DNA from: an uncultured Piscirickettsiaceae bacterium
GTDB lineage: Bacteria > Pseudomonadota > Gammaproteobacteria > GCF-002020875
Reading direction: 5' to 3'
Assembly (NCBI GenBank): GCA_964551545.1
Contig: CAZKCT010000004.1
Location: 2,569-58,708, forward strand
Length of the DNA: 56,140 bases
The first letter of the stretch is position 1. The number at the start of each line of letters is the position of its first letter. A program made the translations under genes and the position numbers. The notes beneath the pieces were generated by a model. It saw only the letters and a list, made by a program, of their open reading frames with translations. It did not search any database and was not told the origin of the DNA. Positions 4,597-28,667 of the stretch are shown in pieces.

Positions 4597-4632
4597 CCGT
4601 AAAACGACTGATAGAGTAACCAGAGGCTGAAC

Positions 4633-5052: not shown

Positions 5053-5834
5053 GCCAGAACCAGAAGATGGACCAGAATAGAGCAGAGCATGATGTTCAGG
5101 TTGTAGACGCTGCACGCCGCCGCTTCCTGGGCCAGGCCGCAGGCGCGACTGCAGTGATTGCGCCAGGTGTGACCTTGGTGAGCATCTCTTCCTCCAGCAG
5201 CGCAGCAGAAGGTGCCAGCAGTGAAAAACGCTGGGGCATGTTGGTTGATACCAATCAGTGTGAGCAGGGTTGTAATGACTGTGTAACGGCCTGTCAGCAA
5301 GAGAATGGTTGGGGGGATGGCTCTAGTGATGAATCCAACTCTCGTTCAGGCCAGAAGGCACAGTGGATTCGTACCGTAACGGTCCGGGATACTCAGACCA
5401 GCCACACCTCACAGCTGCCGATGATGTGCCAGCATTGTGAGCAGCCGCCTTGCGTGGATGTCTGCCCAACGGGTGCATCGATGAAACGTGCGGATGGCAT
5501 TGTCCTGGTAGACAAGCATATCTGCATCGGCTGTCGTTACTGCATGATGGCCTGCCCCTACAAGGCGCGCTCTTTTATTCATGAGCCTATGCATGATCAG
5601 CGAAGCCATGCACCGCGTGGTATGGGTACCGTTGAGGCCTGTACGATGTGTGTTCACCGCGTCGATCGTGGGGATCAGCCTGCTTGTGTTGAGAAATGTA
5701 ATAAGGGAGCCATGACTTTTGGTGATCTGAATGATCCCAATAGCGAAATCTCCAAGAAGCTGGCGGCAGCCAGTTCTACGCAGATTCGTGCAGACCTTGG
5801 AACCAACCCAAGCGTACGTTACAGCGGAATCTAA
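5049..5834 (+). CDS. dsrO: DsrO, Tat-exported NrfC-like FeS protein
   Basis: RRRFL Tat motif; CQHCEQPPCVDVCP, CIGCRYCMMACP and CTMC. Confidence 0.94.
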   Translation: MSQNQKMDQNRAEHDVQVVDAARRRFLGQAAGATAVIAPGVTLVSISSSSSAAEGASSEKRWGMLVDTNQCEQGCNDCVTACQQENGWGDGSSDESNSRSGQKAQWIRTVTVRDTQTSHTSQLPMMCQHCEQPPCVDVCPTGASMKRADGIVLVDKHICIGCRYCMMACPYKARSFIHEPMHDQRSHAPRGMGTVEACTMCVHRVDRGDQPACVEKCNKGAMTFGDLNDPNSEISKKLAAASSTQIRADLGTNPSVRYSGI

Positions 5835-5870
5835 TCGAGTTAAATCGCGAACCAATCACGGAAAGACAAG

Positions 5871-7082: not shown

Positions 7083-7115
7083 TCGGCGCGGGGATGAAAC
7101 CGCGTAGCGGATCTC

Positions 7116-8465
7116 TTGAAGCAGCTCTACCTCTCTGCTGCCCATAAGTCCTCGGGCAAAACCACAGTTACATTAGGCCTCTGTGCTGCGTATGCAGCCA
7201 GAGGCCTTTCTGTCTCCCCATTCAAAAAGGGGCCAGATTATATCGATCCGATGTGGTTATCGATGGCGGCAGGCCTTCCTTGCCATACCTTGGACTTTTA
7301 TACCATGGAGCAAGAGGAGATCCTTTCGCTCTATCATCAGGAGCGCCAGGGGAGTGACCTAGTGTTGGTGGAGGGCAACAAGGGACTCTATGATGGGCTT
7401 TCAGTAGATGGCTCGGATAGCAATGGCGCGATGGCCAAGTTGCTTAATCTGCCCGTTGCACTGGTCATCAACACCAATGGAATTACGCGCGGGATTGCGC
7501 CACTGCTCTTGGGGTATCAGCAATTTGATCCCGAGATCCGCTTTGCCGGAGTCATTCTGAACCAGACCGGAAATGCTCGCCACGAATCCAAACTGCAACA
7601 GGTAGTGGAGCACTATACCGATTTTCCGGTATTAGGGGCGATTCGTCGACATCCAGATCTAGAAATTGTGGAACGTCATCTGGGGCTGGTTCCCAGCAAT
7701 GAGGCGGATGCTGCGCGTCAGAAAATTGAGTCGATTCGTCAGGCAGTTGAGTCACAGGTGGATCTGGACCGCCTGCTAGAGTGTGCATCCGATCAGGAGG
7801 AGGCAGCCCCCCCCTCATTTGAGCCCATCTGTTTTGAGAAAGAGGAGCCGCTCCGTATCGGCATTGCGCGAGATGAGGCCTTTGGATTCTATTATGCGGC
7901 GGATCTGGAAGCTTTTCGTCAGCAGGGGGCTGAATTGGTCCCCTTCAGTCCTATCCATGATCAGCAGCTCCCCGAGGTGGATGGGTTGTTGATTGGTGGA
8001 GGATTCCCAGAGACCCATATGGCCCCACTGGAGCAGAACCACAAGATGCGGAGTCAGATCCGAGAGGCGATTGAAGCAGGGCTACCGACCTATGCCGAGT
8101 GTGGTGGACTGATGTACCTCTCTCGCCAGATTCGGTGGCAGGGTCGTGCCTCAGAGATGGTGGGGGTGATTCCAGGGGAGTGCCAGATGCACCGCCGACC
8201 TCAGGGTCGGGGATATGCCCGTTTCCAGCGCACTGGAGAGGCGCATGAGACTCCCGCGCATGAATTTCACTACTCCTCACTAGAGGGGCTTCCCACAGGA
8301 ATTGAGTACGCCTACATCATCCATCGTGGATATGGCATTGATGGAAAACAGGACGGAATGATTTACAAAAACCTGCTGGCGAGTTATGTTCATCAGCGGA
8401 ATACCCGACAGAATCCCTGGGTTAAAGGGTTTCTCGATCGGGTTCGGAAAATTAAGAATAGCTGA
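7116..8465 (+). CDS. dsrN: DsrN, siroheme amidase (cobyrinic acid a,c-diamide synthase family)
   Basis: SSGKTT P-loop, KKGPDYIDP, VEGNKGLYDG, AECGGLMYL and HEFHYS; TTG start. Confidence 0.92.
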   Translation: MKQLYLSAAHKSSGKTTVTLGLCAAYAARGLSVSPFKKGPDYIDPMWLSMAAGLPCHTLDFYTMEQEEILSLYHQERQGSDLVLVEGNKGLYDGLSVDGSDSNGAMAKLLNLPVALVINTNGITRGIAPLLLGYQQFDPEIRFAGVILNQTGNARHESKLQQVVEHYTDFPVLGAIRRHPDLEIVERHLGLVPSNEADAARQKIESIRQAVESQVDLDRLLECASDQEEAAPPSFEPICFEKEEPLRIGIARDEAFGFYYAADLEAFRQQGAELVPFSPIHDQQLPEVDGLLIGGGFPETHMAPLEQNHKMRSQIREAIEAGLPTYAECGGLMYLSRQIRWQGRASEMVGVIPGECQMHRRPQGRGYARFQRTGEAHETPAHEFHYSSLEGLPTGIEYAYIIHRGYGIDGKQDGMIYKNLLASYVHQRNTRQNPWVKGFLDRVRKIKNS

Positions 8466-12757: not shown

Positions 12758-13918
12758 TTATGCTGCAGAGGCGACTGCCTTCTGGGCAGCACCGGTCAAT
12801 GTATCTTCGACGACGACGTTGAGACCACTGCTCTTCAACATCTCCATCCCCTCTGCGGCATTGGTCCCCTCCAGTCGTACGATGACAGGAATGGATACAC
12901 CGACCTCCTTGATGGCGGTCATGATGCCCTTTGCAATCAGATCACAACGGACGATGCCGCCGAAGATGTTGACCAGAATGGCACGTACCTTGTTGTCACT
13001 CAGAATTAGCTTGAAAGCGGCTGCAACGCGTTCAGCGGTAGTGCCGCCACCGACGTCGAGGAAGTTGGCGGGATCACCACCGTGCAGCTTGATCAGATCC
13101 ATGGTCGCCATCGCCAGACCGGCACCGTTCACCATGCAGCCGATATTGCCGTCGAGGGTGATGTAGTTAAGCTCGTGCTGGCTCGCCTCCAGCTCTGCTG
13201 CATCCTCCTGTGAGGGGTCGTGCATCTCCTGCAGCTTGGGGTGGCGATAGAGGGCGTTGTCGTCAATATTGATCTTTGCATCGAGTGCCAGCAGTTCACC
13301 GTCACCCGTGACGACCAGCGGGTTAATCTCCACCAGACTAAAGTCGTTGTGGGTGAAGAGGCCGTGCAGTCCTTTGAGAATCTTGGTTAGCATGCCGATC
13401 TGTTTCCCTTCCAGACCGAGACCGAAGGCTAGCTGACGGCACTGGTAGGGCTGTAGCCCGGCAGCAGGGTGGGCATGTACGGTGAGGATCTTCTCGGGAG
13501 ACTCAGCAGCCACCTGTTCGATATCCATACCGCCAGCAGCAGAGGCCATGTAGACGATCTGCTCCTTATCACGATCCACCAGTGCACCGAGGTAGAACTC
13601 GCTCTTGATATCCAGTGTCTGTTCAATCAGCACCTTGTGGATTGGTAGGGCACGGCCGTGGGTCTGGTGCGTACTCAGGCTCCCACCCAGCATCTCATCG
13701 ACGATGGCTGCTAGCTCGTCCCCCTCTTTGGTGATCTTGACACCGCCCGCCTTGCCGCGGCCACCTGCATGAACCTGCGCCTTGGCGACCCAGCCGTCAC
13801 TGTCGATCTTTCTGGCGCTGCTGGCGACCTCACTAGACTGTTCCACAGTGATGCCTTGGGGGATGGGGATACCCGCACGCTCAAAGAGCTGTTTGGATTG
13901 ATACTCGTGGAGGTTCAT
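12758..13918 (-). CDS. sucC: Succinyl-CoA synthetase beta subunit
   Basis: [33 protein letters not shown] and [10 protein letters not shown]. Confidence 0.96.
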
Positions 13919-14067: not shown

Positions 14068-17000
14068 CTAATGTGTGCTCTCTTTGTCCGTGTCTTGATA
14101 CTGATCTACTAGTGCAGAGAGGCGATCGGTAATACGACCGGTGACTTCGGACTCCAGTTGGTCGCGTAGTGTCTGCAGCTCCTGCTGGTGTGCCTGCTTG
14201 AGTGCATCGAGTTCGGCCTGATGGCTGGCGGCAACGCTTGCCTCGGCTGCTTGCTGCACTTGGCGGGTGAACGGTGTGACGGTTCCGGCCAGCTCCTGCA
14301 ACATCTGCCACTGCTCCAGTAACTGCCCTAGGCGGCGGGCGAATGAGGGGTCGATTGCCAGCTCAGTGCCATCTATATTACAGGTCGGTGTCTTGTTATT
14401 TTTCCCACGCTGATCGAGCTCGATCCACTGCTCCAGTGGCGTTGGCCCCTTGTGATTGTGCAGCGGGGTAAATAGTCCAGCAAAGCGTGACTCACCATGT
14501 GCCCATGCGGCAATGGAGAGGGTTTCAGTGGCGGCTTTCTCCAGGGTGATGCGAGTGCCAAAGACGCCAGCCTGATCCGGGTTGTAGCGGAACAGCGGGA
14601 AAGCGTGGCTCTCTACAGCGAGTCTTGCCTGGTGGACGGTTTGGTGGGTGTCGAAGCCGTGTCGTTGCGGGCTTGGGGCATGAATTCTCAATAGGGCAGG
14701 GCCACGATAGTGGAGTGCCTCCCGCATGGCATGGTTGAGATGGCCTGGGTCTGCGATGGAACTCTGTGCGACATAGGCATTACGTTGAGCAAGGGCAGAG
14801 AGCGCTAATTCGTTGCGGGCATCACTGTGGCGATGGCTGTTGCCGTGCAATCCCTCTTCGCCGGCAAAACCGAGGTCCATCTCGGCCAGTACGATCACCT
14901 TGATTGGTAGCTCACTGTTAAGTAGCCAAGTGAGTCCACCAGAAGCGGATGCCCCCAATGTCGTGTCATTGCCAATCAGTAGTAGAGGCGGACACTGTTG
15001 TTGCTCATCATCGCTCAAGTCACGCCAGATAAGGTGATCCAGCTCTTTGCGCTCTGCTTGTGGGCCGCCTTTGAGTAGGCTATTGGCTTGATGAATCAGG
15101 CGTTGGGTGGTGGTGGCCTGCTCTAGCTGTCCCTCCATCAATCCGGAGGCGAGAGCACCAATTTCGGCGGCGTTGCCGATGGTGACTGGAACCTGGAATG
15201 GATTAAGCGGGAAGTTTCCGGCCCAGGCTGCTGCAGTGCCTGATGCAAAGGCGAGACTATAGCGGGCGCGCCCCAGTGATTGGTCTCCGGAGGCGATTAG
15301 CTGTTGCTCTTGCTGGATTGCCTCAGCCAGCTCGATCCACTCCTTCAGCAGGAAGGCATCGACTCCCTCTCCTTCGATCTCGGCGGTCTTTTCGGCCAGT
15401 GTGGTGAGGGTGAGATTGCGGTTGGAGAGCTCTCCCAGCCCTTCGGCCAAGGCAGCGAGATCATCAATATGGGAGGCGACCGCCAACTGTTCACGAATGC
15501 CCTCCATCAGTCGCTGATAGAGCCCTTCCAGTGTCTGTAACTGCTGGTGTACCAGCGGCTGTTGGCGATATTCGGTAATTCCGAGCAGCTGACGCAGCAC
15601 CAGTTTTTCTCCGGAGCCTGGTTCTGCACGGTCTCCTCCAGCGATGGCCATTCCTGCATAACGGGAGAGCAGGGTGGCCTGGATTGCACCGATGCCTCCC
15701 TCATCGGAGAGTTCGATCAAACTGCTCGATGCGGTATCGGGTAGCTGCTCCCAGGTACGCCAGTTGCGGTAGTGAGTCTCTAGCAGCGTTGTGTTGGTGG
15801 TTGCAGGTTGTAGTGCAGCAGTTGCCTGCTTTTGCCGCTCGGCCTCTTGTTGGCAGAGTGTGGTACAGATTCCGCACCCTTTGCAGCTATCCGGGTTGAT
15901 GACCAGTGTCAGCAGTTCCCCTGCCTGCGCCTTACTGCGCTCATGGGTATTGAAAAGCTTTTCGGTCAGTACCAGTGGCATGGTACCGAGGTTTTCGCCC
16001 AACTGTTCGATGGCGGCATCAGCTGCCGCACGTCGGTCGGCAGCGAGCGGTGCTTGTTCCATCAGGATCTTCCACCCTTCCTGAATCAAGATGTTGCTAT
16101 CACCACTCTCTGTGATGGTGCTCAATACCTTGGTTAGGTTGGAGAGGTGGGGGCGTAGCGCATCGGCGCCGCCCATTCGCATCCCCGCCTCCAGCAGTTG
16201 CGTTGGTGTGAGGGCAGTGGCACCAATGGCGCTGTCGGGACAGTAGCTCCAGCAGTCACCGCAGCCGCTGCAGGATTGTGGATCGAGCTCAGGAAGCAGT
16301 GTCGCCTGTGAGGTGTGGCTGTTAAAGGTAGAGGAGAGAGGAGGGATATGGCCGGTTGCCAGGTAGGGATCAACCCCCTGCTGGGCCTCCATTCCATCGC
16401 GGTAGAGGACACCATTCTGATCCCAGAAGCGGGAGAGGCTGTGGTACCCCTGTGTGTTGCCCGCTTCGCCTTGTGTCAGATGGCGCACAGCCATCGGTGT
16501 CTGTGGCGCAGTGGCGCTCTCTATGGACTGTTCTGGAAGCGGTTTTGGCGAGAGTGGCTCGAGTGCACTCTGGAATCGCTCTTTCAGTTCATTGGGATGA
16601 TAGTTGTCGACCAGGCGATTCTCACGCAACTCAATGAAGGGCGTGGTCAGAATCAGGCTGAAGAAGTTGCCAATGCGTTGTGCGGTTGCTGCAGCGGCAT
16701 CTTCTAGGCTCTCTGTGTTGTAGTCAATCCAGTAGAGGGTGATGCCCAGTTTATGGAGTTGGGCCACGGTCTTGGTGGGTAGTTCGGCAAGATACTGTTC
16801 AGGGGCAAGTGTGCCTGGGTCAACCAGCAGGCGGGTACCGCTGTGCATGCGCGCCAGTGCTGGAATGCCTTGTTGTGGGGTGTGCTCAGTGAGCAGTGCA
16901 AGATCGATCGATTGTTCCGGATCAAGTGGGGCTGTCAGCGGGGTCGTGCTGTAGCTGAAGCAGTCGGTTTGGCTCTCCCCCCATGTCGACCAGTGGTTCT

Positions 17001-18531
17001 GTTGCTGGCTGCGCAGTTCACCCTCTATGGTCTGGTAGAGCTGTTGTGCGACCTGTGTGGAGAGTGTGCGAGCGGCGCCATTGGTGTGGAGAACCGCGAC
17101 GGTAACGGTTTCATCTCTTTGAGGGAGGGCGCTGCCCTTTCCGCGTAGATGGATCTTGTCGAGATCAGGGTAGTAGCGTTCCAGCAGGTCGTGCTGTGCC
17201 TGCTGCTTTGGGTTGCTATGGCGAGGCAGTGGGTCAATGCCCAGTCGGAGTGTGCTGGCGGGGCGAGTGGTGGGTATTTGGAATACTGCCTGCAGGTCGC
17301 GATTGTGCACGGGCAGGCCACCACTGCCATAGAGGACGGAGTGGACGCGGCAGCTAGGCGAGGCCAGGGCGGTGACTTGCTGATAGAGCGGTGGCTCGTC
17401 ATCGAAGAGCGGTTCGCTTTGATCCAGTACAGTGATCACATCCGCGCGCTGGATCAGCTTGCGCAGTGCGGGTGTGGGTGCTGGAGCAATTTGCTGGATA
17501 CCGACAATGGCCAGCTCGGAACCACGTTTCTGTTTGAGTTGCTGAATCAGTTGCTGGCAGCGTTCAGTGATAGCACCTTGGGTCACCACCAGGTGCCGAC
17601 TCTTGTACTCTCCTTGGTAGGAGAGCGGTCCATACTCTCGTCCAGTCAGCTCGCTAAATTGAGCAAAGGTCTGCTCCAGCAGTGGTGTAACCTGCTTGCC
17701 GAAAAATTGGGTGTGGGCAATTTCGCCCAATCCGAAGCTGTGTGCATCCTGATAAGCACCTTGCAGCGTGGGGTGGTCCAGGTTGTGCCAGCAGGGGATG
17801 CGGCGACGGCTCTCGCCAAACAGCATCTTCTGTGCTGAATCTTTCAGTGTGATGGTGTCACTGCAATTTCCCACCAGCTGCTGAATCAGTTGCGGAGAGG
17901 GAAGCTGCAATTTCTGCATGGAAAAGGCGGTCTCATCACCATCCATTGCCACGATCACAGGTACTAGTGTCTGTTCTGCCACTGCATGCGCAATCAGGGT
18001 AAAGTCGATTGCCTGCTGTCCATTCTGTGCAAAGAGCACGCATGCACCACTATTGCGGAGTTGATGCAGAGGCTGGTGGCTGCCTCCATGGCTCTCCCCT
18101 TGTAGGGGCTGGGCACGGTTGATGGTGTGGATCACCAGTGGCAGGTGTTGCCCGACAGCTCGTCGCACCAGGTCTTGTGCGGCGGCTAAATCGCTGGACC
18201 AGAGGCTGCAGGAGCTCCTTTTTCCGGCTAGCACCAGACCCATCGCGCCAGATAGAGCTGCGCGTGGACTCTCGCTTTCGAGTTGTAGTAACGGTTGGCC
18301 AAATAGATTGAGCTGCTGACGTTGTTGCTCACCACGCAAGGCAATGGCACCCTGTTCTGGCGGGAAACTGTCACCGGTTGCGGAGGCCTCGGAGAGGATC
18401 GCTTCTACGGTAGCGATCGCAACAGTACCCTCCAGCAGGGTGGTGATCCCATGCTCATCACTCTGTGGAGTGCGCTGCAGTCCTAGCAGTTGGCGATAGA
18501 GGCGGCTGGCGATTTCAGTGAAGCTGGGCAT
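14068..18531 (-). CDS. Large PFOR/NifJ-derived protein with degenerate catalytic motifs and two intact 4Fe-4S motifs
   Basis: Colinear with PFOR domains (NLFGQP, LPLVIHTINRA, AMDGDETAF, YGSGG, NAYVAQSS, FPLFRYNP). Keeps CSGCGDCWSYCP and CKGCGICTTLC. Lacks YPITP, CxxC-GE and GDG. Confidence 0.8.
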   Translation of the reverse strand: MPSFTEIASRLYRQLLGLQRTPQSDEHGITTLLEGTVAIATVEAILSEASATGDSFPPEQGAIALRGEQQRQQLNLFGQPLLQLESESPRAALSGAMGLVLAGKRSSCSLWSSDLAAAQDLVRRAVGQHLPLVIHTINRAQPLQGESHGGSHQPLHQLRNSGACVLFAQNGQQAIDFTLIAHAVAEQTLVPVIVAMDGDETAFSMQKLQLPSPQLIQQLVGNCSDTITLKDSAQKMLFGESRRRIPCWHNLDHPTLQGAYQDAHSFGLGEIAHTQFFGKQVTPLLEQTFAQFSELTGREYGPLSYQGEYKSRHLVVTQGAITERCQQLIQQLKQKRGSELAIVGIQQIAPAPTPALRKLIQRADVITVLDQSEPLFDDEPPLYQQVTALASPSCRVHSVLYGSGGLPVHNRDLQAVFQIPTTRPASTLRLGIDPLPRHSNPKQQAQHDLLERYYPDLDKIHLRGKGSALPQRDETVTVAVLHTNGAARTLSTQVAQQLYQTIEGELRSQQQNHWSTWGESQTDCFSYSTTPLTAPLDPEQSIDLALLTEHTPQQGIPALARMHSGTRLLVDPGTLAPEQYLAELPTKTVAQLHKLGITLYWIDYNTESLEDAAAATAQRIGNFFSLILTTPFIELRENRLVDNYHPNELKERFQSALEPLSPKPLPEQSIESATAPQTPMAVRHLTQGEAGNTQGYHSLSRFWDQNGVLYRDGMEAQQGVDPYLATGHIPPLSSTFNSHTSQATLLPELDPQSCSGCGDCWSYCPDSAIGATALTPTQLLEAGMRMGGADALRPHLSNLTKVLSTITESGDSNILIQEGWKILMEQAPLAADRRAAADAAIEQLGENLGTMPLVLTEKLFNTHERSKAQAGELLTLVINPDSCKGCGICTTLCQQEAERQKQATAALQPATTNTTLLETHYRNWRTWEQLPDTASSSLIELSDEGGIGAIQATLLSRYAGMAIAGGDRAEPGSGEKLVLRQLLGITEYRQQPLVHQQLQTLEGLYQRLMEGIREQLAVASHIDDLAALAEGLGELSNRNLTLTTLAEKTAEIEGEGVDAFLLKEWIELAEAIQQEQQLIASGDQSLGRARYSLAFASGTAAAWAGNFPLNPFQVPVTIGNAAEIGALASGLMEGQLEQATTTQRLIHQANSLLKGGPQAERKELDHLIWRDLSDDEQQQCPPLLLIGNDTTLGASASGGLTWLLNSELPIKVIVLAEMDLGFAGEEGLHGNSHRHSDARNELALSALAQRNAYVAQSSIADPGHLNHAMREALHYRGPALLRIHAPSPQRHGFDTHQTVHQARLAVESHAFPLFRYNPDQAGVFGTRITLEKAATETLSIAAWAHGESRFAGLFTPLHNHKGPTPLEQWIELDQRGKNNKTPTCNIDGTELAIDPSFARRLGQLLEQWQMLQELAGTVTPFTRQVQQAAEASVAASHQAELDALKQAHQQELQTLRDQLESEVTGRITDRLSALVDQYQDTDKESTH

Positions 18532-19378
18532 AACGTTTCTGACCCTCTGTCATGTTCCGGTTGTTTTCATTGAACTGCTCTCCATCGAGCCAGAGAATGG
18601 CTCCGGTGGGGCAGCGCCAGGTGGCTTTAGGATCAGCCTTGCTTCCGCTTTGATAGTTCAGCTCTGGAAGGTTGTTGACCATCTCGATCAGCCCTGTCGT
18701 GGCATCGGCAGCGCACTTGCCGCAGCCATCACAGGCGGAGCGGCAGAGCACGGTGATCGCCTCCCCCTCCAGTGGTGCATTGCACTGCACAAAGAGATGC
18801 TCATCCATCGAGTGAATCTGGAATAGGTCCTTGGGGCAGGCCACAACACAATCTTCACAGGCGGTGCACTTTTCGGTGTCCACGACGGGCAGGCCATTCG
18901 TGTTCATGTGGATGGCGTCAAAGGTACAGGCGATCTCGCAGTCGGCCAATCCGAGGCAACCCCAAGAGCAGCCTTTTCCTCCGCCCGATACCGTTGCCGC
19001 AGCGCGACAGCTCTCAAAGCCTTGGTATTCTGCAATCTGCCACGCCTCAGCCTTTCCGCCTGCGCAGTGGAGACGGGCTACTCGCTTGACCTGTTCGCCG
19101 GCATCAACACCCAAGAGATCAGCAATCTCCTCGATCTCCTCCTTGGGGGCAACGGTGCATTTGCTTGGCTCGATATTGCCAGCGATCAGCTCCTCGGCAA
19201 AGGCGCGGCATCCCGGCTCTCCACAAGCGCCGCAGTTGGTGCCGGGAAGCATTCCCTCGGTCTGGTCAATGCGCGGGTCTTCCTCCACCTTGAGCAGGCG
19301 ATAGGCCACGGCCAACACAACCCCAAAGAAGAGGCCAATGCCGGTCATGATGGCAGGGGAGGCGAGTGCGCTATTCAT
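18515..19378 (-). CDS. rnfB: RnfB/RsxB, membrane-anchored FeS subunit
   Basis: N-terminal TM helix, LPGTNCGACGEPGC, CSWGCLGLADCEIACTFDAI, CTACEDCVVACP and further Cys motifs. Confidence 0.92.
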   Translation of the reverse strand: MNSALASPAIMTGIGLFFGVVLAVAYRLLKVEEDPRIDQTEGMLPGTNCGACGEPGCRAFAEELIAGNIEPSKCTVAPKEEIEEIADLLGVDAGEQVKRVARLHCAGGKAEAWQIAEYQGFESCRAAATVSGGGKGCSWGCLGLADCEIACTFDAIHMNTNGLPVVDTEKCTACEDCVVACPKDLFQIHSMDEHLFVQCNAPLEGEAITVLCRSACDGCGKCAADATTGLIEMVNNLPELNYQSGSKADPKATWRCPTGAILWLDGEQFNENNRNMTEGQKRYAQLH

Positions 19379-19393: not shown

Positions 19394-21916
19394 CTACTGG
19401 TTGAATGGTGCGGCACGCTCAATCAGCTCATCCAGATCCGCTTCATCCTTGTTGAGCGGCATACCCGGATGGATGCAGCGTGAAGGACAGATCTCTGCCG
19501 CCTCGACCATCTGTGCATAGGTGCCGAGGTTAGGATCAGTGATGTAGGCCTGCTTATCTTCGTTGTAGACGAATAGCTGTGGGTTGATCGCCAGACAGTC
19601 GTTGCAGGTGGTGCAGAGCATAGAGTCGACCCATGGATCTTCACTAATCTCGATCACCGCCTCTGCTGCATCCTCCTCCTCTGTGGGTGCATTCGGCTCG
19701 GAGTCCACTTCACTGGACTCTTCCTGGTTCTCCTTAGTGACCGGAGCTGATGAGCTGGCAGGTGTCGCTGTGGAACTGAAACCTTGTGAGAGATCCATCT
19801 CCATCAACACTTGAGCCAGCTTGCCCATCACTTCCGTGGTGGCATTGCCTTGTAGTTCGGTGAGCTCTGCCTCATGGGCTGCATTGAGTTCGCTGATTTG
19901 GCTGTTGAGTTTGGCCTCTGCCAATAGGTTGGCTTCATTGAGGGACTGTTCAACGTGCGGGTTACGTACGCCAGAGAGCTCTTGCAGGGTATGCCAGTAG
20001 TTGAGGCGATCCTTGCAGGCGAGGATCAACTCACGGGAGACGACGACCTTGTGCAGCTCATTTTCCTCATTGATTGTCCAGACGAAGGGGATCAGTGAGA
20101 AGGTCTCCTCATCGCTCTGTCCAAGATAATCGGCAATGGGGATCAGACTGTTGGAGTCAAAGCCAGCAGGAATCTGACGGAAATGATTACGCAGTTGTGG
20201 AATCAGAAGCGCATAGTCAGCAAAGGTGAAGGCCAGCTCGGTATGCACCATCTCGCCGCTATCGTCACGGTAGCTGAAGGGGTGAATGGCCCAATCCTTT
20301 TCCGCTTGTGGATTGACACTGAAGTTCATACGCTCGGCAAAGGTATCCCCATGCTTCGGGTTGATGCGGAAGAAGGGGTGAACGCGCCCCTCCAGCGCTG
20401 CACCGGAGACCATCCAGGGGTCCATCAGGAATTGCTTGCGGGTCTTGGTGACCGATTCCCCTACCAGGTGAGGATCAGCCTCTTGCAGAATGACCTCATC
20501 CTGCATGCCGGTATTGATGAGGTGAACACTGGTACGGGGGATCTCAGTGGCCTCCAGGAAGCCCTGCATCAGGTGCTGGTAGCGTGCCGCAGAGGTCTGG
20601 CTAACGTAGCACTGACGATGCGCAGTGGCGAGGTAACCTAGCTCCAGACGGAAATCCTGGAATGGGTGCTCGTCACTGGCGGCGGGGTTGCCATGCCCCT
20701 TAATTCGTGTGAGTACCTGCACAGGGCGACCAGAGTTGAGCAGTCTGGAGAAGGCGCTCATCCCATTGTCGGCAAGGCGCAGTGAAGACTCCAGCGCAAT
20801 GGTGGCCGGGATCAGTAGCAGCTCCTCTTCGGAGAAGGCCTCCCAGCCAAAATTGTCGAACCAGGGATCGTGGACTACTGAGTCATACTGGTTGTCGATC
20901 TCCAGTCGAGCGATACGACAGGCCGAGAAGAGCGTTGCCAGTTGGCCGGCCTGTTCATCAAACAGGATGGCAGCTCGGCTGCAGGGGTCTTCATCCGAAA
21001 TGGTTTCGAAGTGTTCCGGACTACGGGTCCAAGAGCCACTAAAATCTCCACTGTGGACGAACCGGACCTGAATAGAGGGCTGTTCAAATTGGTGAATGAC
21101 TGCTGTGGCCTGCTCAATCCGATTGAGTCGATCCTCTGACATTGGTACGGTTGCGGACTGTTTCGGTAGCAAGTCGGTGAGTCGGTCGGTATTGAAATGG
21201 GCGGCTTCGTTACCCATGCTGCGACTGACCGCTGTGGCATCGATCTCTCCTCGTTTGTGTCGTTCCACATCAAGCAGCTGGTCGAGTTGGCGTTGTAGGC
21301 CTTTTACCTCATCTTCAAAGGCATCCCAGCGGGCATGGAAGCGGCCATGCACCAGATGGATCATCAGATGAATGGTGGTGTAGCGGTCATAGGGGAGCAG
21401 TTCATCTTTGGGGTGAACGCCCTCTATCAGCTGGTCAAGGTCGGCCTGCAGGTTGGCACTGTTCTCTTCCGATAGGGTGAGATGCTCCAGCAGCGCACGG
21501 TTAGACTTTTCGACAATTGGGCGCAGTAATTGTGGCCCCTCTAACGCTTCGATCTCCTTGCGAATGGCATATTCCAGCCAATCCAGGTTGTCTTTGAGAA
21601 TACGTGCGCTGTTCTCGCCCGGGGCAAAGCTCTCGATATGCTCCTTGAGGAAGCTGGCAAGTGGCTCTGCATGGCGATCCTTGTACTGGGAGTGACGAGA
21701 GAAGAGGATCAGCGGATAGTCATAGCGGATCTTGGAGGCGTCACGAAACGGACTCAACAGTGCAGGCAGGTGCTCGCTGTTGATGGAGAGTGTCTCCCGC
21801 TCCACACTGGGATCTCCCAAATGGAAGTGGTGCAGGGTTCGCAAGATTGCCGCTTCAGCTTCACGATCCGGCTGTGTGGAGGCATGCAGGGTTGGTAGAG
21901 GAGGTGCGCTACTCAT
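19394..21916 (-). CDS. Uncharacterised protein with a degenerate PFOR C-terminal domain, coiled coil, acidic linker and C-terminal ferredoxin
   Basis: LLNSGRPVQVL, CYVSQTS, HPFFRINP and WHTLQELSGV mirror the C-terminus of 14068..18531. Ends in CTTCNDC...CPSRC. Confidence 0.75.
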   Translation of the reverse strand: MSSAPPLPTLHASTQPDREAEAAILRTLHHFHLGDPSVERETLSINSEHLPALLSPFRDASKIRYDYPLILFSRHSQYKDRHAEPLASFLKEHIESFAPGENSARILKDNLDWLEYAIRKEIEALEGPQLLRPIVEKSNRALLEHLTLSEENSANLQADLDQLIEGVHPKDELLPYDRYTTIHLMIHLVHGRFHARWDAFEDEVKGLQRQLDQLLDVERHKRGEIDATAVSRSMGNEAAHFNTDRLTDLLPKQSATVPMSEDRLNRIEQATAVIHQFEQPSIQVRFVHSGDFSGSWTRSPEHFETISDEDPCSRAAILFDEQAGQLATLFSACRIARLEIDNQYDSVVHDPWFDNFGWEAFSEEELLLIPATIALESSLRLADNGMSAFSRLLNSGRPVQVLTRIKGHGNPAASDEHPFQDFRLELGYLATAHRQCYVSQTSAARYQHLMQGFLEATEIPRTSVHLINTGMQDEVILQEADPHLVGESVTKTRKQFLMDPWMVSGAALEGRVHPFFRINPKHGDTFAERMNFSVNPQAEKDWAIHPFSYRDDSGEMVHTELAFTFADYALLIPQLRNHFRQIPAGFDSNSLIPIADYLGQSDEETFSLIPFVWTINEENELHKVVVSRELILACKDRLNYWHTLQELSGVRNPHVEQSLNEANLLAEAKLNSQISELNAAHEAELTELQGNATTEVMGKLAQVLMEMDLSQGFSSTATPASSSAPVTKENQEESSEVDSEPNAPTEEEDAAEAVIEISEDPWVDSMLCTTCNDCLAINPQLFVYNEDKQAYITDPNLGTYAQMVEAAEICPSRCIHPGMPLNKDEADLDELIERAAPFNQ

Positions 21917-21931
21917 CGTTGGTTCAACCCG

Positions 21932-22894
21932 TTAAATGGCAAAGGTGTCCAGCGCCTTGTTGGTCGCTGCAATTTTCTGCTCGTCGGTGGCGTCATGGCC
22001 GACACTGGAGAGCTCGTCATAGCAGGGACGAGACGCATCCTGGTAGAGCAGGCCGACGGGGATGATTCCCTTGTCGGTCTCGTCACGGGCAATCGCCATC
22101 GCTTCATTGAAGTCAGAGGGGTCGTGCTCGCGGGTTTCCGGGAAGAGGCGGTCGATGCCGGGAGCGACCGGAATACCATTTTCATGTTGTAACAGTAGTA
22201 GACGGGAGCTGTCTTCCTGCAGCTCCTTGGTGATGCTGTCACTGAAGACCGGGCAACGCTGGATGACGCGGACAAAGCTACTCCCTTTGTGGGCGTGTGC
22301 AGCCTTGATTGTCTCGTAGAGCAGGGGTGGATTCCAGTCAACTACCTGGGCCACAAAGGAGGCGTTGGTGATCGCCATGGTGACCGTGTTGGGGTTCATC
22401 ATATCAATCGATGCCCCCTCTGGATGGGTGTTGGTGGGGAACTCCAGTGGTGTGGTTGGAGAGGTCTGCTTCTTGGTCAGTCCGTAGATCTGATTATCGA
22501 AGACCAATACGGTCATATCCATGTTGTAGCGAACCGCATGGATCCAGTGACCGGCACCGATGGAGTAGCAGTCACCATCACCGGTAGCGACCCAGACATC
22601 CAGATCGGGGCGGCGGGATTTTACACCGCAGGCGAGTGGCAGCGCGCGACCATGGATGCCATGCAGGCCGTAGGTGGCCATATAGTGGGGCATACGGCTG
22701 GAGCAGCCGATGCCGGAGACAAAGACACTCTTTTCGGGAGGGAGCTGTGCATCACGCAATACGCGGTGGGCGGTTGCCAGGACGGCGTGGTCACCACAAC
22801 CGTCACACCAGCGCGCCACGTTACCCTCGTAGTCATCGATGGTGAAGTAGCGCTCCTGAATGTCGAGAGACCAATCTGCCTTAATTCCAAACAT
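21932..22894 (-). CDS. korB: 2-oxoacid (probably 2-oxoglutarate):ferredoxin oxidoreductase beta subunit
   Basis: WCDGCGDH, SGIGCSSR, HGRALP, TPP motif GDGD...NQIYGLTKKQTSPT and QRCP. Confidence 0.9.
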   Translation of the reverse strand: MFGIKADWSLDIQERYFTIDDYEGNVARWCDGCGDHAVLATAHRVLRDAQLPPEKSVFVSGIGCSSRMPHYMATYGLHGIHGRALPLACGVKSRRPDLDVWVATGDGDCYSIGAGHWIHAVRYNMDMTVLVFDNQIYGLTKKQTSPTTPLEFPTNTHPEGASIDMMNPNTVTMAITNASFVAQVVDWNPPLLYETIKAAHAHKGSSFVRVIQRCPVFSDSITKELQEDSSRLLLLQHENGIPVAPGIDRLFPETREHDPSDFNEAMAIARDETDKGIIPVGLLYQDASRPCYDELSSVGHDATDEQKIAATNKALDTFAI

Positions 22895-22897: not shown

Positions 22898-24772
22898 TTA
22901 TTCTCCTGTCTCGCTGTCGGTCAGTTGATCCAGGCGCTCTTGCAGCGCCCCCTCAATCAGGTCCGGTTGTAGCGGGTGACCATAGACTACAGACCAGCAA
23001 TCGACATCGACCAGGGTCTGTACACGCAGTACGGTAGCGAGCTGGCCGTAGCGACGGTTCTCATCGGTGACCATCGGTGCGTTGGGATCATCGCTATAGT
23101 TGACCTCCACCGTAATCACCTTGTTGAAGCGGGAGAAGATCTCCTTCAATCCCGGTTCTAGAGGAGAGAGGAAGCGTAGATGGATGGTAGAGACCTTGTT
23201 GCCTTTCTCACGCAGGTTATCGACCGCTTCGGTGATCGCGCCCCAAGTAGAACCCCAGCCGATGACTAGCATATCACCAGACTCATCCCCATGAATCTTG
23301 GGTGGGGTGAGGGTGCTCTGCAGTGTGCCCAGCTTTCGGCTGCGCATGGTGTGGCTATACTGGTTTTCAGCGGACTCATAAGAGACCTTGCTGTGTTTGG
23401 TATGAGAGAGACCAGTCATGATGTACTCACCCTTCGGCATACCCGGAATCGGACGCTGTGAGAGGCCGGTGTTCTCGTCCCACTCAAAGGGGGCTACATT
23501 GGTATCCCATTCTGACTGATCCAGTGGCGGTGCCATCATCTCGCGGGTGACATCAGGGCGTGCCCACGGCTGTACGCCGGTTGCCAGATTGGCATCGGTC
23601 AATACAATGACTGGGCCACGGAAGGTTTCGGCCAGTTTACGTGCAGTGACCACCATGCTGAAACACTCGGCAATGGTGGCAGCTGCCATGATGATTTTTG
23701 GAGCATCGCCCGGCATACCGTACAGAGAGGAGAGCAGATCCGCCTGCTCAATCTTAGTAGGCAGACCGGTAGAGGGGCCGCCACGCTGTACGTCGACAAT
23801 CACCAGTGGGATCTCGGCCATCACTGCCAGCGCGATATTCTCGGTCTTCAGCGCCATGCCAGGACCAGAGGTGATGGTGCAGGCGGTCTTGCCCGCGTAC
23901 GAGGCACCAATCGCAAAGGAGATTGCGGCAATCTCATCTTCCGCTTGATGAATGAAACCACCGGCTTCAGGATAGATTTCTGCCAGATAGTGGGTGGCAG
24001 AGGTGGCCGGGGTGATCGGATACATCGAGACCAGCTCCATGCCCGAGGCGAGGACACCGAGTCCGACCGCCTGGTTTCCGTTGGTGACCACCATCTTCTG
24101 TTGTCCCATCTCTTCTGCAGGGGGGATGTCAAAGAAGTATTCGGGAAGCTGTTCTCCGGCAAAGGCGTAACCAGCATCAAATAGATTTTGGTTGCTGGTG
24201 ATGATCGCCTCCTTCTTGCCGGCAAAGGTGAGGGCGATCTCATTGCGACCCAACTCTTTGTCTCGGTTGTAGATGCGGCAGAGCATCCCGAGTACGAACA
24301 TGTTTTTGCCCTTGCGGGGATCTTTCACCACCTTCAGGCAGGCCTCATGAATCGGCAATTCGTGAACGACCAGGCCGTGGTCACGGAACTCCTTCACAGC
24401 TTTGGCGTACATTTGTTGGATTTCTTCGGAGGCATCCGTGGCCCAGCGGTTATCCAGCAATACTACAGAGCCCTTCTTGTAGGCGCCGTTGGCGATGCGA
24501 GAGTAGAGTACCTGCTCGTTAAAGGCGACGACGAGATCGCCCTCATTGCCGACATTGGTGATGTATTTGGAGCCGAGACGAATACGGATGCCGCTGGCAC
24601 CAGACGGGGTGCGAGCGGGCGGCTGAATCTCGGCCGGAATAATCTCTACCGTCCAGACGCCGTTATTCATCTTGGAGCTGATATTTCCGAAAGTCTGGCC
24701 GCACTTCTGTGCGCCTTCGCCGGAGTCGCTAACGATCTCGACGATGTGTTCCTGAATGGTTGTTGGACTCAA
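22898..24772 (-). CDS. korA: 2-oxoacid (probably 2-oxoglutarate):ferredoxin oxidoreductase alpha subunit (gamma-alpha fusion)
   Basis: DSGEGAQ, YPITPAT, QAEDEIAA, TSGPG and QRGGPSTGLPTK. Start placed at TTG 24772 after GAGGGA. Substrate is inferred. Confidence 0.9.
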   Translation of the reverse strand: MSPTTIQEHIVEIVSDSGEGAQKCGQTFGNISSKMNNGVWTVEIIPAEIQPPARTPSGASGIRIRLGSKYITNVGNEGDLVVAFNEQVLYSRIANGAYKKGSVVLLDNRWATDASEEIQQMYAKAVKEFRDHGLVVHELPIHEACLKVVKDPRKGKNMFVLGMLCRIYNRDKELGRNEIALTFAGKKEAIITSNQNLFDAGYAFAGEQLPEYFFDIPPAEEMGQQKMVVTNGNQAVGLGVLASGMELVSMYPITPATSATHYLAEIYPEAGGFIHQAEDEIAAISFAIGASYAGKTACTITSGPGMALKTENIALAVMAEIPLVIVDVQRGGPSTGLPTKIEQADLLSSLYGMPGDAPKIIMAAATIAECFSMVVTARKLAETFRGPVIVLTDANLATGVQPWARPDVTREMMAPPLDQSEWDTNVAPFEWDENTGLSQRPIPGMPKGEYIMTGLSHTKHSKVSYESAENQYSHTMRSRKLGTLQSTLTPPKIHGDESGDMLVIGWGSTWGAITEAVDNLREKGNKVSTIHLRFLSPLEPGLKEIFSRFNKVITVEVNYSDDPNAPMVTDENRRYGQLATVLRVQTLVDVDCWSVVYGHPLQPDLIEGALQERLDQLTDSETGE

Positions 24773-24941
24773 AACAGTTCCCTCGTAGAACAAAAATTCC
24801 TTGTGTAGCCTGAGGTTCAGGCGGGTAATGACAGCCCTTAATAATCGCACTATTTGTGCGTAGAAATCAAGTTTTAGGGGATTTTGTGCTCTTCAGATGC
24901 CTGCAAAATGCCCGAAGTTTTGCTGTTTTTTGTGGAGTTTA

Positions 24942-28569: not shown

Positions 28570-28619
28570 ACTGGGCAATTTGAGTGTCCTGAAATCGAAA
28601 AGGGGGGCGAATACTACCA

Positions 28620-28660
28620 TAAAAAAGCCGGTCTTCGCGTTGAGGCAAAGACCGGCTTTA
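28620..28660 (-). terminator. Terminator after tRNA-Glu
   Basis: Minus strand reads AAAGCCGGTCTT...AAGACCGGCTTTTTT. Confidence 0.8.
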
Positions 28661-28667
28661 GATCTGT

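What the first reader, a model, noticed from the sequence alone, without database searches (positions are those of the whole stretch)
14068..18531. 1487-aa PFOR pseudoenzyme: catalytic motifs lost, both ferredoxin motifs kept
Seen by manual alignment to canonical NifJ/PFOR. YPITP is replaced by GDSFPP. The TPP-activating Glu of QSEAGA aligns with Pro (ESPRAA). The proximal-cluster CAGCGE is EPGSGE. NATGC is ASGTA. The TPP/Mg GDG motif is GND. CSGCGDCWSYCP and CKGCGICTTLC remain, separated by a ~115-120-aa insert, and the ORF is intact over 4.4 kb. Inference: the protein is kept as a scaffold or electron wire between RnfB (whose stop it overlaps) and KorAB. It would probably be mis-annotated as pyruvate synthase.
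Basis: partly seen in the sequence, partly recalled or inferred. Interest (0 to 1): 0.82.

Follow-up and report, generated by a model that had tools for sequence, protein, structure and literature searches.

The report
Dead PFOR paralogue wired to Rnf
This large gene encodes a pyruvate:ferredoxin-oxidoreductase look-alike that has lost its catalytic site yet is strongly conserved, and it always sits among genes for a membrane Rnf redox pump and a real 2-oxoglutarate enzyme, so it most likely joins the two.

Summary
Window 14068-18531 (minus strand) is an intact 1487-aa PFOR homologue. It lacks YPITP, the TPP-activating Glu, all four proximal-cluster Cys and the GDG/Mg loop, but keeps both ferredoxin CxxCxxCxxxCP motifs.

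It is not decaying. At least 200 homologues share these losses, about 200 positions are at least 85% conserved, and dN/dS is 0.05-0.36.

Three new points:
- The gene belongs to an operon conserved across two phyla: korA-korB-p840-rnfB-psPFOR-(sucCD)-rnfC-rnfDGEA.
- A sister paralogue ("type 2", also in this genome) lies between rnfB and rnfC of a full rnf operon. It keeps every catalytic motif, so the window's protein is the dead twin of an Rnf-linked live enzyme.
- The 840-aa neighbour is a second dead paralogue of the C-terminal half, with an invariant single-cluster ferredoxin domain.

Best reading: a non-catalytic adaptor that docks KorAB on a dedicated Rnf complex and, in most members, relays electrons through its two clusters. 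Binding is inferred, not shown. 15 of 206 homologues have lost four of the eight ferredoxin Cys, so scaffolding may be the core role.

I found no description in print. This is a new variant of a known kind, of high interest.

The parts
14068..18531 (-). psPFOR (type 1): 1487-aa PFOR-derived protein without a catalytic site
   Evidence: ORF. Pfam POR_N 78 bits, PFOR_II below cut-off, Fer4 x2, no POR and no TPP_enzyme_C. TIGR02176 122 bits against a cut-off of 911. Family profile vs 6cin E 1e-95.
17242..18531 (-). Residues 1-430, domains I-II; YPITP is G53DSFP and the catalytic Glu is P89
16432..17241 (-). Residues 431-700, degenerate domain III (the CoA-binding domain in PFOR); the least constrained part, deleted in some same-genus homologues
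   Evidence: Aligned to PFOR domain III only by the family profile. No Pfam POR hit. dN/dS 0.13-0.36. The 1258-1297-aa forms lack it.
16237..16272 (-). First ferredoxin motif, CSGCGDCWSYCP (C754, 757, 760, 764)
15853..15885 (-). Second ferredoxin motif, CKGCGICTTLC (C883, 886, 889, 893)
14452..15741 (-). Residues 931-1360, domain VI-like (TPP 'PP' fold kept). The cluster-A ligands are E970, S973, T1099 and S1287. GGDG is GNDT. The Mg loop is deleted. A helical insert of about 97 aa spans 983-1089.
   Evidence: AF2 model pLDDT 82. Foldseek 6cin E 7e-17 and OFOR beta subunits..
14068..14451 (-). Residues 1361-1487, C-terminal extension ending in a long helix; shared with type 2 and p840
18515..19378 (-). 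RnfB' : membrane-anchored, multi-cluster RnfB paralogue; its 3' end overlaps the psPFOR start
   Evidence: TIGR01944 81.8 bits, above cut-off. N-terminal hydrophobic helix. Conserved Cys motifs. Directly upstream of psPFOR in 12 of 12 type-1 loci with upstream sequence.
19394..21916 (-). p840: dead paralogue of the psPFOR C-terminal half plus a C-terminal single-cluster ferredoxin (Fer4_13)
   Evidence: Pfam Fer4_13. hhalign of the p840 family vs the psPFOR C-half E 2.5e-59. Foldseek to PFOR and OFOR beta. C768, C771, C774, C810 and C814 invariant in 33 of 33.
21932..22894 (-). KorB, live OFOR beta subunit (CxxC, GDG and other catalytic motifs present)
   Evidence: Pfam TPP_enzyme_C 94 bits and PFO_beta_C. 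Sequence shows CDGCGD, GIGCSS, TGDGD.
22898..24850 (-). KorA, OFOR alpha subunit (domains III-I-II)
   Evidence: TIGR03710 497 bits, above cut-off
12758..13918 (-). SucC, succinyl-CoA synthetase beta subunit, inserted between psPFOR and rnfC'
   Evidence: NF001913 557 bits
11874..12746 (-). SucD, succinyl-CoA synthetase alpha subunit
   Evidence: NF004230 477 bits
10528..11868 (-). RnfC' (NADH/FMN subunit) of the dedicated Rnf set; its rnfDGEA partners lie on another contig (G000:C79)
   Evidence: TIGR01945 527 bits
25026..29010 (-). NuoF-like (25026-26303), TfrA-like fumarate reductase flavoprotein (26300-27937) and Fer2/Fer4 protein (27934-29010), upstream in the same direction
   Evidence: Also upstream of korA in L045, L048, L051, L059 and L060.

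Best explanation
psPFOR is the catalytically dead paralogue of a PFOR-type enzyme that is genetically built into an Rnf complex. It cannot bind TPP or the proximal [4Fe-4S] cluster, so it does not turn over 2-oxoacids.

It is kept as a large cytoplasmic adaptor subunit of a dedicated Rnf complex: RnfB' and RnfC' in the window, RnfD'G'E'A' on contig C79. Together with p840, a second dead paralogue carrying an invariant ferredoxin domain, it holds the two-subunit, single-cluster 2-oxoglutarate:ferredoxin oxidoreductase KorAB next to RnfB'.

Low-potential electrons made by Rnf from NADH plus the ion gradient would then reach KorAB without free ferredoxin. Succinyl-CoA + CO2 would give 2-oxoglutarate, or the reverse reaction would run. 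In most members the two ferredoxin-type clusters of psPFOR would be part of this path.

Shown: loss of motifs, retained fold, purifying selection, operon conservation, the live sister paralogue, and the paralogy of p840. Inferred: physical association, the electron path and its direction.
For: (1) Motif loss is family-wide.
- In 206 homologues, E970 is in 196, S973 in 196 and S1287 in 188, and no Glu stands at position 89.
- 0 of 17 type-1 sequences keep YPITP, the Glu, NATGC's Cys, GGDG, the VYSNTGGQ loop or the fourth Cys. One has a single Cys at 973.

(2) Purifying selection.
- 201 positions are at least 85% conserved.
- dN/dS is 0.05-0.36 in five pairs, and the dead domain VI is among the most constrained parts at 0.07-0.13. 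dS is above 1, so the values are rough.

(3) The fold is kept.
- AF2 C-half model: pLDDT 82, pTM 0.79.
- Foldseek: PFOR E 7e-17 and OFOR beta subunits.

(4) Operon.
- korA-korB-p840-rnfB lie upstream in 11 of 11 type-1 loci that reach that far.
- rnfC lies downstream in 10 of 12 loci with at least 2 kb downstream.
- rnfD-G-E-A follow in 4 of 4 loci tested for them, including a Phycisphaerales chromosome and Ca. Thiodiazotropha MAGs. In G059 and G360 rnfD follows rnfC directly.
- The psPFOR start overlaps the rnfB end.

(5) Live sister.
- Type 2 (~1640-1660 aa) lies between rnfB and rnfC of rnfB-X-rnfCDGE(A).
- It keeps all motifs in 13 of 13 sequences.
- It hits Pfam POR, TPP_enzyme_C and Fer4_13.
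- It shares with type 1 the inserts at 796-865 and 983-1089 and the C-terminal extension, which canonical PFOR lacks.
- Each type is one clade with SH-aLRT 100, and type 1 has the longer stem.

(6) A dedicated Rnf set.
- The window's RnfB'/RnfC' and the orphan rnfDGEA on C79 are closest to the type-2 operon's subunits (48-57% for B, C, D and E; 36% for G).
- They are further from the canonical rnf operon on C11 (35-42%, no hit for RnfB).

(7) KorAB is of the two-subunit type, which lacks domain V and holds one cluster (review PMC13768988, section 3 read). KorB here keeps its motifs.

(8) The neighbours TfrA/NuoF and SucCD supply the steps from fumarate to succinyl-CoA. The genome also has 2-oxoglutarate dehydrogenase E1, so KorAB is not needed for the oxidative direction.
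Against: - No physical evidence of a complex exists.
- 15 of 206 homologues, including the 5 Planctomycetota proteins, keep only C754, C764, C883 and C893. They probably cannot hold two [4Fe-4S] clusters, yet the Phycisphaerales operon is complete. Electron relay through psPFOR's own clusters is therefore not universal.
- In two loci (L049, L050) no rnfC was found within 2.2-4.5 kb downstream.
- In the window's own assembly rnfDGEA are unlinked, on contig C79.
- The operon's presence in two phyla may reflect one transfer and is not independent support.
- The replaced residues (E970, S973, S1287, D967, R980, H1291) are themselves highly conserved, which could mark a new ligand site rather than a mere scar.
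- R139, the equivalent of the substrate-binding Arg, is kept in 144 of 206.
- The direction (synthase or oxidase) is inferred from neighbours only.
Confidence: 0.5

Rival explanations
1. Pure scaffold or assembly subunit. psPFOR only positions KorAB and p840 at the Rnf complex. Electrons pass RnfB' -> p840 ferredoxin domain -> KorB, and psPFOR's own clusters, where present, are structural.
For: 15 of 206 homologues lost four of the eight ferredoxin Cys while the operon stays intact. The p840 ferredoxin Cys are invariant in 33 of 33 and present in the Phycisphaerales copy. The family-specific inserts and the long C-terminal helix shared by psPFOR, type 2 and p840 look like interaction elements.
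Against: 191 of 206 keep all eight Cys, with 93-100% conservation per position. That is a strong constraint for merely structural clusters.
Confidence: 0.25
2. Still an enzyme or ligand-binding protein with new chemistry. The remodelled former TPP/cluster pocket binds another cofactor, metal or metabolite.
For: The substitutions are not random. E970 (196 of 206), G972, S973 (196), G974, S1287 (188), H1291, R1290, N1110 and W1103 are highly conserved. The Asp of GDG stays acidic in 155 of 206 (D117 + E38). R139 is kept in 144 of 206.
Against: The Mg/diphosphate loop is deleted. YPITP and the Glu are gone. Domain III is dispensable in some lineages. No match to any other enzyme family was found. 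A live KorAB is always encoded beside it.
Confidence: 0.1
3. Regulatory sensor. The dead active site still binds a 2-oxoacid or CoA and gates Rnf or KorAB activity.
For: R139 is retained and most members keep a domain III remnant.
Against: Domain III is the least constrained part and is deleted in a same-genus clade. The other substrate-contact motif, YPITP, is lost. There is no precedent in the passages read.
Confidence: 0.07
4. A decaying gene: a PFOR copy on its way to loss.
For: All catalytic motifs are gone.
Against: The frame is intact at 4.4 kb. At least 120 homologues score above 749 bits. 201 positions are at least 85% conserved. dN/dS is 0.05-0.36. Synteny is conserved in two phyla.
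Confidence: 0.01

Closest known systems
One-subunit pyruvate:ferredoxin oxidoreductase (PFOR/NifJ; Moorella thermoacetica 6CIN, Desulfocurvibacter africanus 1B0P)
   Same: Same domain order I-II-III-IV-V-VI. The family profile matches 6cin at E 1e-95. The domain VI fold is recovered by Foldseek at E 7e-17. The two domain V cluster motifs are kept.
   Different: No YPITP, no catalytic Glu, no proximal-cluster Cys, no GDG or Mg loop. TIGR02176 scores 122 bits against a cut-off of 911. Extra inserts in domains V and VI and a C-terminal helical extension. The genome has a separate canonical PFOR with all motifs.
'Type 2' Rnf-operon PFOR-like enzyme (uncharacterised; own-genome copy G000:C27 = L052 4158-9083)
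   Same: Closest relative, at about 1150 bits to the type-1 profile against about 170 for canonical PFOR. It shares the inserts and tail and the position between rnfB and rnfC.
   Different: Type 2 keeps every catalytic motif in 13 of 13 sequences, has Pfam POR and TPP_enzyme_C hits and a fused C-terminal Fer4_13 domain. No korAB or p840 lies beside it.
Two-subunit KorAB 2-oxoglutarate:ferredoxin oxidoreductase (Magnetococcus marinus type, 6N2N)
   Same: This is the live enzyme encoded next to psPFOR. It lacks domain V and has one cluster, so it needs an external electron carrier (review PMC13768988, section 3).
   Different: psPFOR is not this enzyme. It would act as its partner or carrier.
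Ferredoxin-like delta subunits and polyferredoxins of OFORs (PorD/OorD; PorE of Methanococcus)
   Same: Fe-S proteins encoded with an OFOR that carry its electrons. psPFOR's domain V is homologous to PorD/KorD (TIGR02179 hit).
   Different: psPFOR is 1487 aa and carries whole dead catalytic domains, not a small ferredoxin.
RnfH, the extra cytoplasmic subunit of Azotobacter vinelandii Rnf1
   Same: A precedent for a non-core subunit of an Rnf complex (review PMC12174285, passages seen).
   Different: RnfH holds no cofactor and is unrelated to OFORs.

Membership tests
Catalytic PFOR/OFOR (TPP-dependent 2-oxoacid:ferredoxin oxidoreductase) | Domains I, II, III and VI present ('essential for activity', PMC13768988 section 3) | tested here: inconclusive
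   Domains I and II are clear (Pfam POR_N; profile alignment). The domain VI fold is kept. Domain III is seen only by the family profile, with no Pfam POR hit, and is deleted in some homologues.
Catalytic PFOR/OFOR (TPP-dependent 2-oxoacid:ferredoxin oxidoreductase) | TPP/Mg site: GDG followed by the xVYSNTGGQ loop in domain VI (motif names as in the finding and as seen in 6 of 6 canonical PFORs) | tested here: not met
   GGDG is GNDT and the loop is deleted in 17 of 17 type-1 sequences. No Pfam TPP_enzyme_C hit.
Catalytic PFOR/OFOR (TPP-dependent 2-oxoacid:ferredoxin oxidoreductase) | Glu of domain I that activates TPP (role recalled; position from alignments) and the YPITP substrate loop | tested here: not met
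   P89 stands at the Glu column, with no Glu in 206 homologues. YPITP is GDSFP.
Catalytic PFOR/OFOR (TPP-dependent 2-oxoacid:ferredoxin oxidoreductase) | Four Cys ligands of the proximal [4Fe-4S] cluster in domain VI | tested here: not met
   They are E970, S973, T1099 and S1287. In 206 homologues at most one of them is Cys in any sequence.
Catalytic PFOR/OFOR (TPP-dependent 2-oxoacid:ferredoxin oxidoreductase) | Eight Cys of the medial and distal clusters (domain V) | tested here: met
   C754, 757, 760, 764 and C883, 886, 889, 893. All eight are present in 191 of 206 homologues.
Catalytic PFOR/OFOR (TPP-dependent 2-oxoacid:ferredoxin oxidoreductase) | Curated model score (NCBIfam TIGR02176) | tested here: not met
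   121.9 bits against a cut-off of 911.35. The genome's canonical PFOR scores 1720.8.
Pseudoenzyme (dead paralogue kept by selection) | Catalytic residues lost while a live paralogue keeps them | tested here: met
   66 positions at least 90% conserved in both type 2 and canonical PFOR are changed in type 1, including all the motif residues.
Pseudoenzyme (dead paralogue kept by selection) | Purifying selection after the loss | tested here: met
   dN/dS 0.05-0.36. 201 positions at least 85% conserved in 206 sequences.
Subunit of an Rnf complex | Gene inside an rnf operon | tested here: met
   rnfB lies directly upstream and rnfC downstream in the window. The full order rnfB-psPFOR-rnfC-D-G-E-A is seen in L061, L062 and L064. 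In this genome rnfDGEA are on another contig.
Subunit of an Rnf complex | Physical association with RnfB/RnfC | not testable with these tools
   This needs co-purification or a structure. See Tried and rejected for the one prediction job.

The most novel reading that the evidence does not exclude
A separate lineage of Rnf complexes carries PFOR-derived subunits as fixed parts.

In the 'type 2' form, a live 2-oxoacid oxidoreductase is plugged into RnfB/RnfC. This would give an ion-translocating 2-oxoacid:NAD+ oxidoreductase, or in reverse a 2-oxoacid synthase driven by NADH and the ion gradient.

In the 'type 1' form, seen in the window, the plugged-in enzyme has died. It now serves, with p840, as the socket for KorAB. 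The result would be a membrane-bound 2-oxoglutarate synthase supercomplex that needs no soluble ferredoxin.
Probability: 0.35. Interest if true: 0.88.

Novelty: new variant of a known kind. Interest (0 to 1): 0.78.

Why it matters
Reductive carboxylation by 2-oxoacid:ferredoxin oxidoreductases needs electrons at about -500 mV. How aerobic or microaerobic sulfur oxidisers supply them is an open problem for the reverse TCA cycle and for heterotrophic CO2 assimilation. An Rnf pump hard-wired to its client enzyme through dead and live PFOR modules would be a new way to channel such electrons, and a new class of Rnf accessory subunit.

It also has practical weight. These genes are widely annotated as 'pyruvate:ferredoxin oxidoreductase' or 'ferredoxin'. 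Metabolic reconstructions of symbionts (Riftia, Solemya, lucinid and Lamellibrachia symbionts) and of large sulfur bacteria may therefore count PFOR isoforms that cannot work as PFOR.

One transcriptome study of the Riftia symbiont reports a 'PFOR-like' gene co-regulated with a dimeric korAB, without explanation (PMC11636981, passages seen).

Tried and rejected
Decaying gene: rejected.

Complex prediction: psPFOR residues 720-1440 with RnfB' residues 35-270 (collected). The verdict was 'no answer' with score 0.00, and the controls were not run. It counts neither for nor against binding. The N-terminal half, p840 and KorAB could not be tested because the cap is one job.

The search for related loci with the 57-sequence alignment A1 failed, as there was no conserved 7-10-column stretch. 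I used the genome search and later the single Planctomycetota protein P0117.

Global-mode hhalign placed the third cluster Cys (NATGC) inside the helical insert. I rejected that placement in favour of the MAFFT alignments with type 2. There NATGC lines up with F/A-S-G-T and the following GGNxPxxPW-like stretch with AGNFPLNPF.

Expression:
- Four RNA-library runs of one study hold 7-10% of the gene's sampled words.
- Their contigs, mostly at least 99% alike, lie on parts of the cluster, including inside psPFOR at 16071-16281, 16654-16882 and 17168-17360.
- Contigs of an RNA library may contain DNA and give no strand, ends or level. This is only a hint that the operon is transcribed. Uncovered bins mean nothing.

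ATP-citrate lyase: the Pfam Citrate_bind search of the genome found nothing, but the control genomes rang nowhere, so it is uninformative.

dN/dS: dS exceeds 1 in all pairs and was undefined in two regions. The ratios are therefore approximate.

Literature:
- Seven answered full-text searches found no paper that describes a non-catalytic PFOR homologue or an OFOR-like gene inside rnf operons.
- The terms covered were PFOR-like; rnfB/rnfC/korA/korB; Rnf complex + PFOR + pseudoenzyme; Rnf + korAB + operon; Thiodiazotropha + Rnf; and rnf gene cluster + rnfB.
- I read sections 2 and 3 of the PFOR review PMC13768988.
- I read passages only of PMC11636981, PMC4914600, PMC6593406 and PMC12174285.
- Supplements are closed. 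Supplementary Tables 4-7 of PMC11636981 may identify the 'PFOR-like' and korAB(3) genes and could bear on whether they are this family.
- Subscription journals are not covered.

Full report
THE OBSERVATION

The ORF at 14068..18531 is real, intact and 1487 aa long, but it lies on the minus strand.

Pfam sees POR_N (78 bits), a sub-threshold PFOR_II and two Fer4 motifs. It sees no POR (domain III) and no TPP_enzyme_C. NCBIfam's PFOR model TIGR02176 gives 122 bits against a cut-off of 911.

phmmer against solved structures finds Moorella PFOR 6CIN (E 8e-29) and D. africanus 1B0P. It aligns YPITP with GDSFP and the Glu of QSEAGA with P89.

The genome's own canonical PFOR (contig C21, 1182 aa, 1721 bits to TIGR02176) has YPITP, SEAG, CTGCAE, NATGC, GDG, SNTGGQ and APC. 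hhalign puts its CTGCAE on E970-P-G-S973-G-E and its APC on P-S1287-P.

MAFFT alignment with motif-complete relatives gives three further mappings:
- The Cys of NATGC falls on T1099.
- GGDG falls on G-N-D-T (1187-1190).
- The xVYSNTGGQ loop is simply deleted.

NOT A DECAYING GENE BUT A FAMILY

A word-indexed search returned at least 120 full-length homologues above 749 bits. An exhaustive search with residues 289-1487 found 562 representatives at E <= 1e-30. These include type 2 and canonical PFORs.

In a MAFFT alignment of the 206 stored homologues of 1380-1620 aa, 201 positions are at least 85% conserved.

The substituted positions are themselves conserved: E970 in 196 of 206, S973 in 196, S1287 in 188. 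Position 89 is P, A or G and never Glu. No sequence has more than one Cys at the four former cluster positions.

Nei-Gojobori dN/dS in five same-genus pairs is 0.08-0.19 overall. It is 0.07-0.13 for the dead domain VI and highest, at 0.13-0.36, for domain III. dS is saturated, so these are rough values. A same-genus clade has deleted domain III altogether, giving 1258-1297-aa forms.

FOLD

An AlphaFold2 model of residues 720-1487, built on 30 aligned relatives, reached pLDDT 82 and pTM 0.79. Its best Foldseek matches are PFOR (E 7e-17) and the TPP-binding beta subunits of other OFORs.

The former Mg loop (residues ~1224-1238) and part of a long helical insert are of low confidence. The protein ends in a helix of about 60 residues.

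CONTEXT

In the window the minus-strand run is:
- Fer2/Fer4 protein
- TfrA-like flavoprotein
- NuoF-like protein
- KorA
- KorB
- p840
- RnfB'
- psPFOR
- SucC
- SucD
- RnfC'

. RnfB' has the N-terminal membrane helix and many Cys motifs. KorB keeps its CxxC, GDG and other motifs.

I ran tblastn with the window's proteins on 13 type-1 loci from other genomes:
- RnfB' is directly upstream in 12 of 12 loci that have upstream sequence.
- KorA-KorB-p840 lie upstream in 11 of 11 that reach that far.
- RnfC lies downstream in 10 of 12 with at least 2 kb downstream. It is absent in L049 and L050.
- SucCD lie between psPFOR and rnfC in 4 of 13.

In a Phycisphaerales chromosome (CP070772.1), two Ca. Thiodiazotropha MAGs and a Planctomycetota MAG, rnfC is followed by rnfD, rnfG, rnfE and a second RnfE/A-like gene. 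In G059 and G360, rnfD follows rnfC directly.

The unit is therefore korA-korB-p840-rnfB-psPFOR-(sucCD)-rnfCDGEA.

In a sample of 400 genomes of the same class, 22 carry a family member at E <= 1e-150.

THE LIVE SISTER

The same searches revealed a second group, 'type 2', of about 1640-1660 aa. It scores about 1150 bits to the type-1 profile, against about 170 bits for canonical PFOR.

In 7 of 7 loci it is followed by rnfC, and in 6 of 7 it is preceded by an rnfB. NCBIfam confirms rnfD, rnfG and rnfE next in the two loci tested, one of them the window's own genome, contig C27. One complete genome (G128) has this as its only rnfC/rnfD.

Type 2 keeps YPITP, the Glu, CxGCxE, N[AS]TGC, GGDG, DTQVYSNTGGQ and the fourth Cys in 13 of 13 sequences. 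17 type-1 sequences keep none of them, apart from one stray Cys.

The own-genome type-2 protein hits Pfam POR_N, POR, PFOR_II, TPP_enzyme_C and a C-terminal Fer4_13.

Types 1 and 2 share inserts that canonical PFOR lacks. In query numbering these are 225-237, 452-464, 680-689, 796-865 in domain V and 983-1089 in domain VI, plus C-terminal extensions.

66 positions conserved in both type 2 and canonical PFOR are changed in type 1.

In a quick ML tree rooted on six canonical PFORs, each type is one clade (SH-aLRT 100). Type 1 has the longer stem, 1.09 against 0.55. With three groups the sister relation is given by the rooting. The shared inserts and operon position are the real argument for it.

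p840

The 840-aa neighbour has only a Pfam Fer4_13 hit. However, its family profile aligns with the psPFOR C-terminal half at E 2.5e-59: p840 residues 48-710 with psPFOR residues 727-1477.

The alignment covers a domain V remnant without Cys, a domain VI without GDG and the helical tail. Its AF2 model (pLDDT 71) finds PFOR and OFOR beta subunits.

The five Cys of its ferredoxin domain are invariant in 33 of 33 and are present in the Phycisphaerales copy.

It is closer to the C-terminus of type 2 (222-251 bits, Fer4_13 included) than to that of type 1 (62-110 bits).

At least 120 homologues exist. They are named 'ferredoxin', 'pyruvate decarboxylase' (Solemya symbiont) or 'putative pyruvate flavodoxin/ferredoxin oxidoreductase' (Riftia endosymbiont).

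THREE Rnf SETS IN THIS GENOME

Family searches find three rnfC, three rnfB and three rnfA:
- A canonical operon on C11.
- The type-2 operon on C27.
- The window's rnfB'/rnfC', plus an orphan rnfD-G-E-A on the 5-kb contig C79.

The window and C79 subunits are closest to those of C27: RnfC 48%, RnfB 54%, RnfD 49%, RnfE 57%, RnfG 36%. They are further from C11: 38%, no hit, 35%, 42%, no hit. The whole pump was therefore duplicated together with its PFOR-like subunit.

HOW IT MOST LIKELY WORKS

Shown:
- psPFOR cannot be a TPP enzyme.
- It keeps the PFOR fold and, in 191 of 206 members, all eight ferredoxin Cys.
- It is selected.
- It is encoded with a dedicated Rnf, a live single-cluster KorAB and a second dead paralogue with an invariant ferredoxin.
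- Its nearest relative is a live enzyme in the same place of an rnf operon.

Inferred:
- The ancestor was an OFOR docked on RnfB/RnfC that passed electrons directly to or from the pump.
- After duplication, catalysis was handed to KorAB.
- The old enzyme body survived as the docking platform (psPFOR plus p840) and, in most lineages, as part of the electron path.

TfrA/NuoF and SucCD lie beside it, and the genome has 2-oxoglutarate dehydrogenase and RuBisCO. This favours the reductive direction from fumarate to 2-oxoglutarate, but does not prove it.

Against a universal 'wire': 15 of 206 members, all five Planctomycetota proteins among them, keep only four of the eight Cys.

WHAT IS KNOWN

A 2026 review of PFOR diversity states that all PFORs need domains I, II, III and VI and that two-subunit forms lack domain V. 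It mentions no non-catalytic homologue (sections 2 and 3 read, term search).

A 2025 Rnf review names RnfH as an extra subunit. In the passages seen it names no OFOR-like one.

A Riftia-symbiont transcriptome paper lists a 'PFOR-like' gene falling together with a dimeric korAB under sulfide limitation. It treats the OGOR/PFOR isoforms as of unknown function (passages seen). Whether that gene is this family I could not check, because supplements are closed.

Seven answered searches found nothing closer.

VERDICT

- Observation: confirmed.
- Pseudoenzyme: well supported.
- Adaptor or wire between Rnf and KorAB: the best reading at about 0.5, with 'pure scaffold' the main rival.
- The discovery of the live Rnf-embedded sister and of the dead p840 makes the system more interesting than the finding stated.

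Noticed in passing
G000:C27 (L052 4158-9083, minus strand): A second, motif-complete PFOR-like gene (1642 aa, with a fused C-terminal Fer4_13) lies between rnfB and rnfC of a full rnfB-X-rnfCDGE(A) operon in the same genome. It looks like an enzyme hard-wired to Rnf and is uncharacterised as far as I could find.
   Followed up: yes
window 19394-21916 (-): The 840-aa 'ferredoxin' is a dead paralogue of the PFOR C-terminal half with an invariant single-cluster ferredoxin domain. The stored cluster representative is 803 aa (96% coverage), so the true start may lie about 37 codons downstream of the first ATG.
   Followed up: yes
L014, L015, L016, L032, L033, L059, L060: Same-genus homologues of 1258-1297 aa have cleanly lost domain III (query residues ~493-676). 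They form one clade in the tree.
   Followed up: partly
P0114, P0115, P0117, P0118, P0120 and 10 others; L061 10001-14638: A subgroup including all five Planctomycetota proteins keeps only the first and last Cys of each ferredoxin motif (pattern C-x-x-C-C-x-x-C over the eight positions). It has probably lost both clusters or gained another metal site.
   Followed up: partly
G000:C79 (5045 bp): An orphan rnfD-rnfG-rnfE-rnfA operon with no rnfB or rnfC. It is closest to the type-2 set and is presumably the membrane part for the window's RnfB'/RnfC'.
   Followed up: yes
window 25026-29010 (-): NuoF-like (425 aa), TfrA-like fumarate reductase flavoprotein (545 aa) and a Fer2/Fer4 protein (358 aa) form a trio. 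It recurs upstream of korA in five other loci and may be a soluble NADH-linked fumarate reductase.
   Followed up: partly
window 1014-8465 (+): A dsr-type run: a CCG/Fer4 protein (DsrK-like), a 659-aa Pyr_redox_2/Fer4 protein (DsrL-like), a Fer4_11 protein (DsrO-like), an NrfD protein (DsrP-like) and a CobB/CobQ-type amidotransferase (DsrN-like). The names are recalled from the domain content.
   Followed up: no
window 42057-48332: A second SdhA/FrdA-type flavoprotein (650 aa), a flavocytochrome c sulfide dehydrogenase flavoprotein (442 aa) and a 359-aa protein made almost wholly of ankyrin repeats, which is unusual for a free-living bacterium.
   Followed up: no
L049 and L050: In two type-1 loci no rnfC or sucCD was found within 2.2-4.5 kb downstream of psPFOR, so the operon is not always contiguous.
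   Followed up: no
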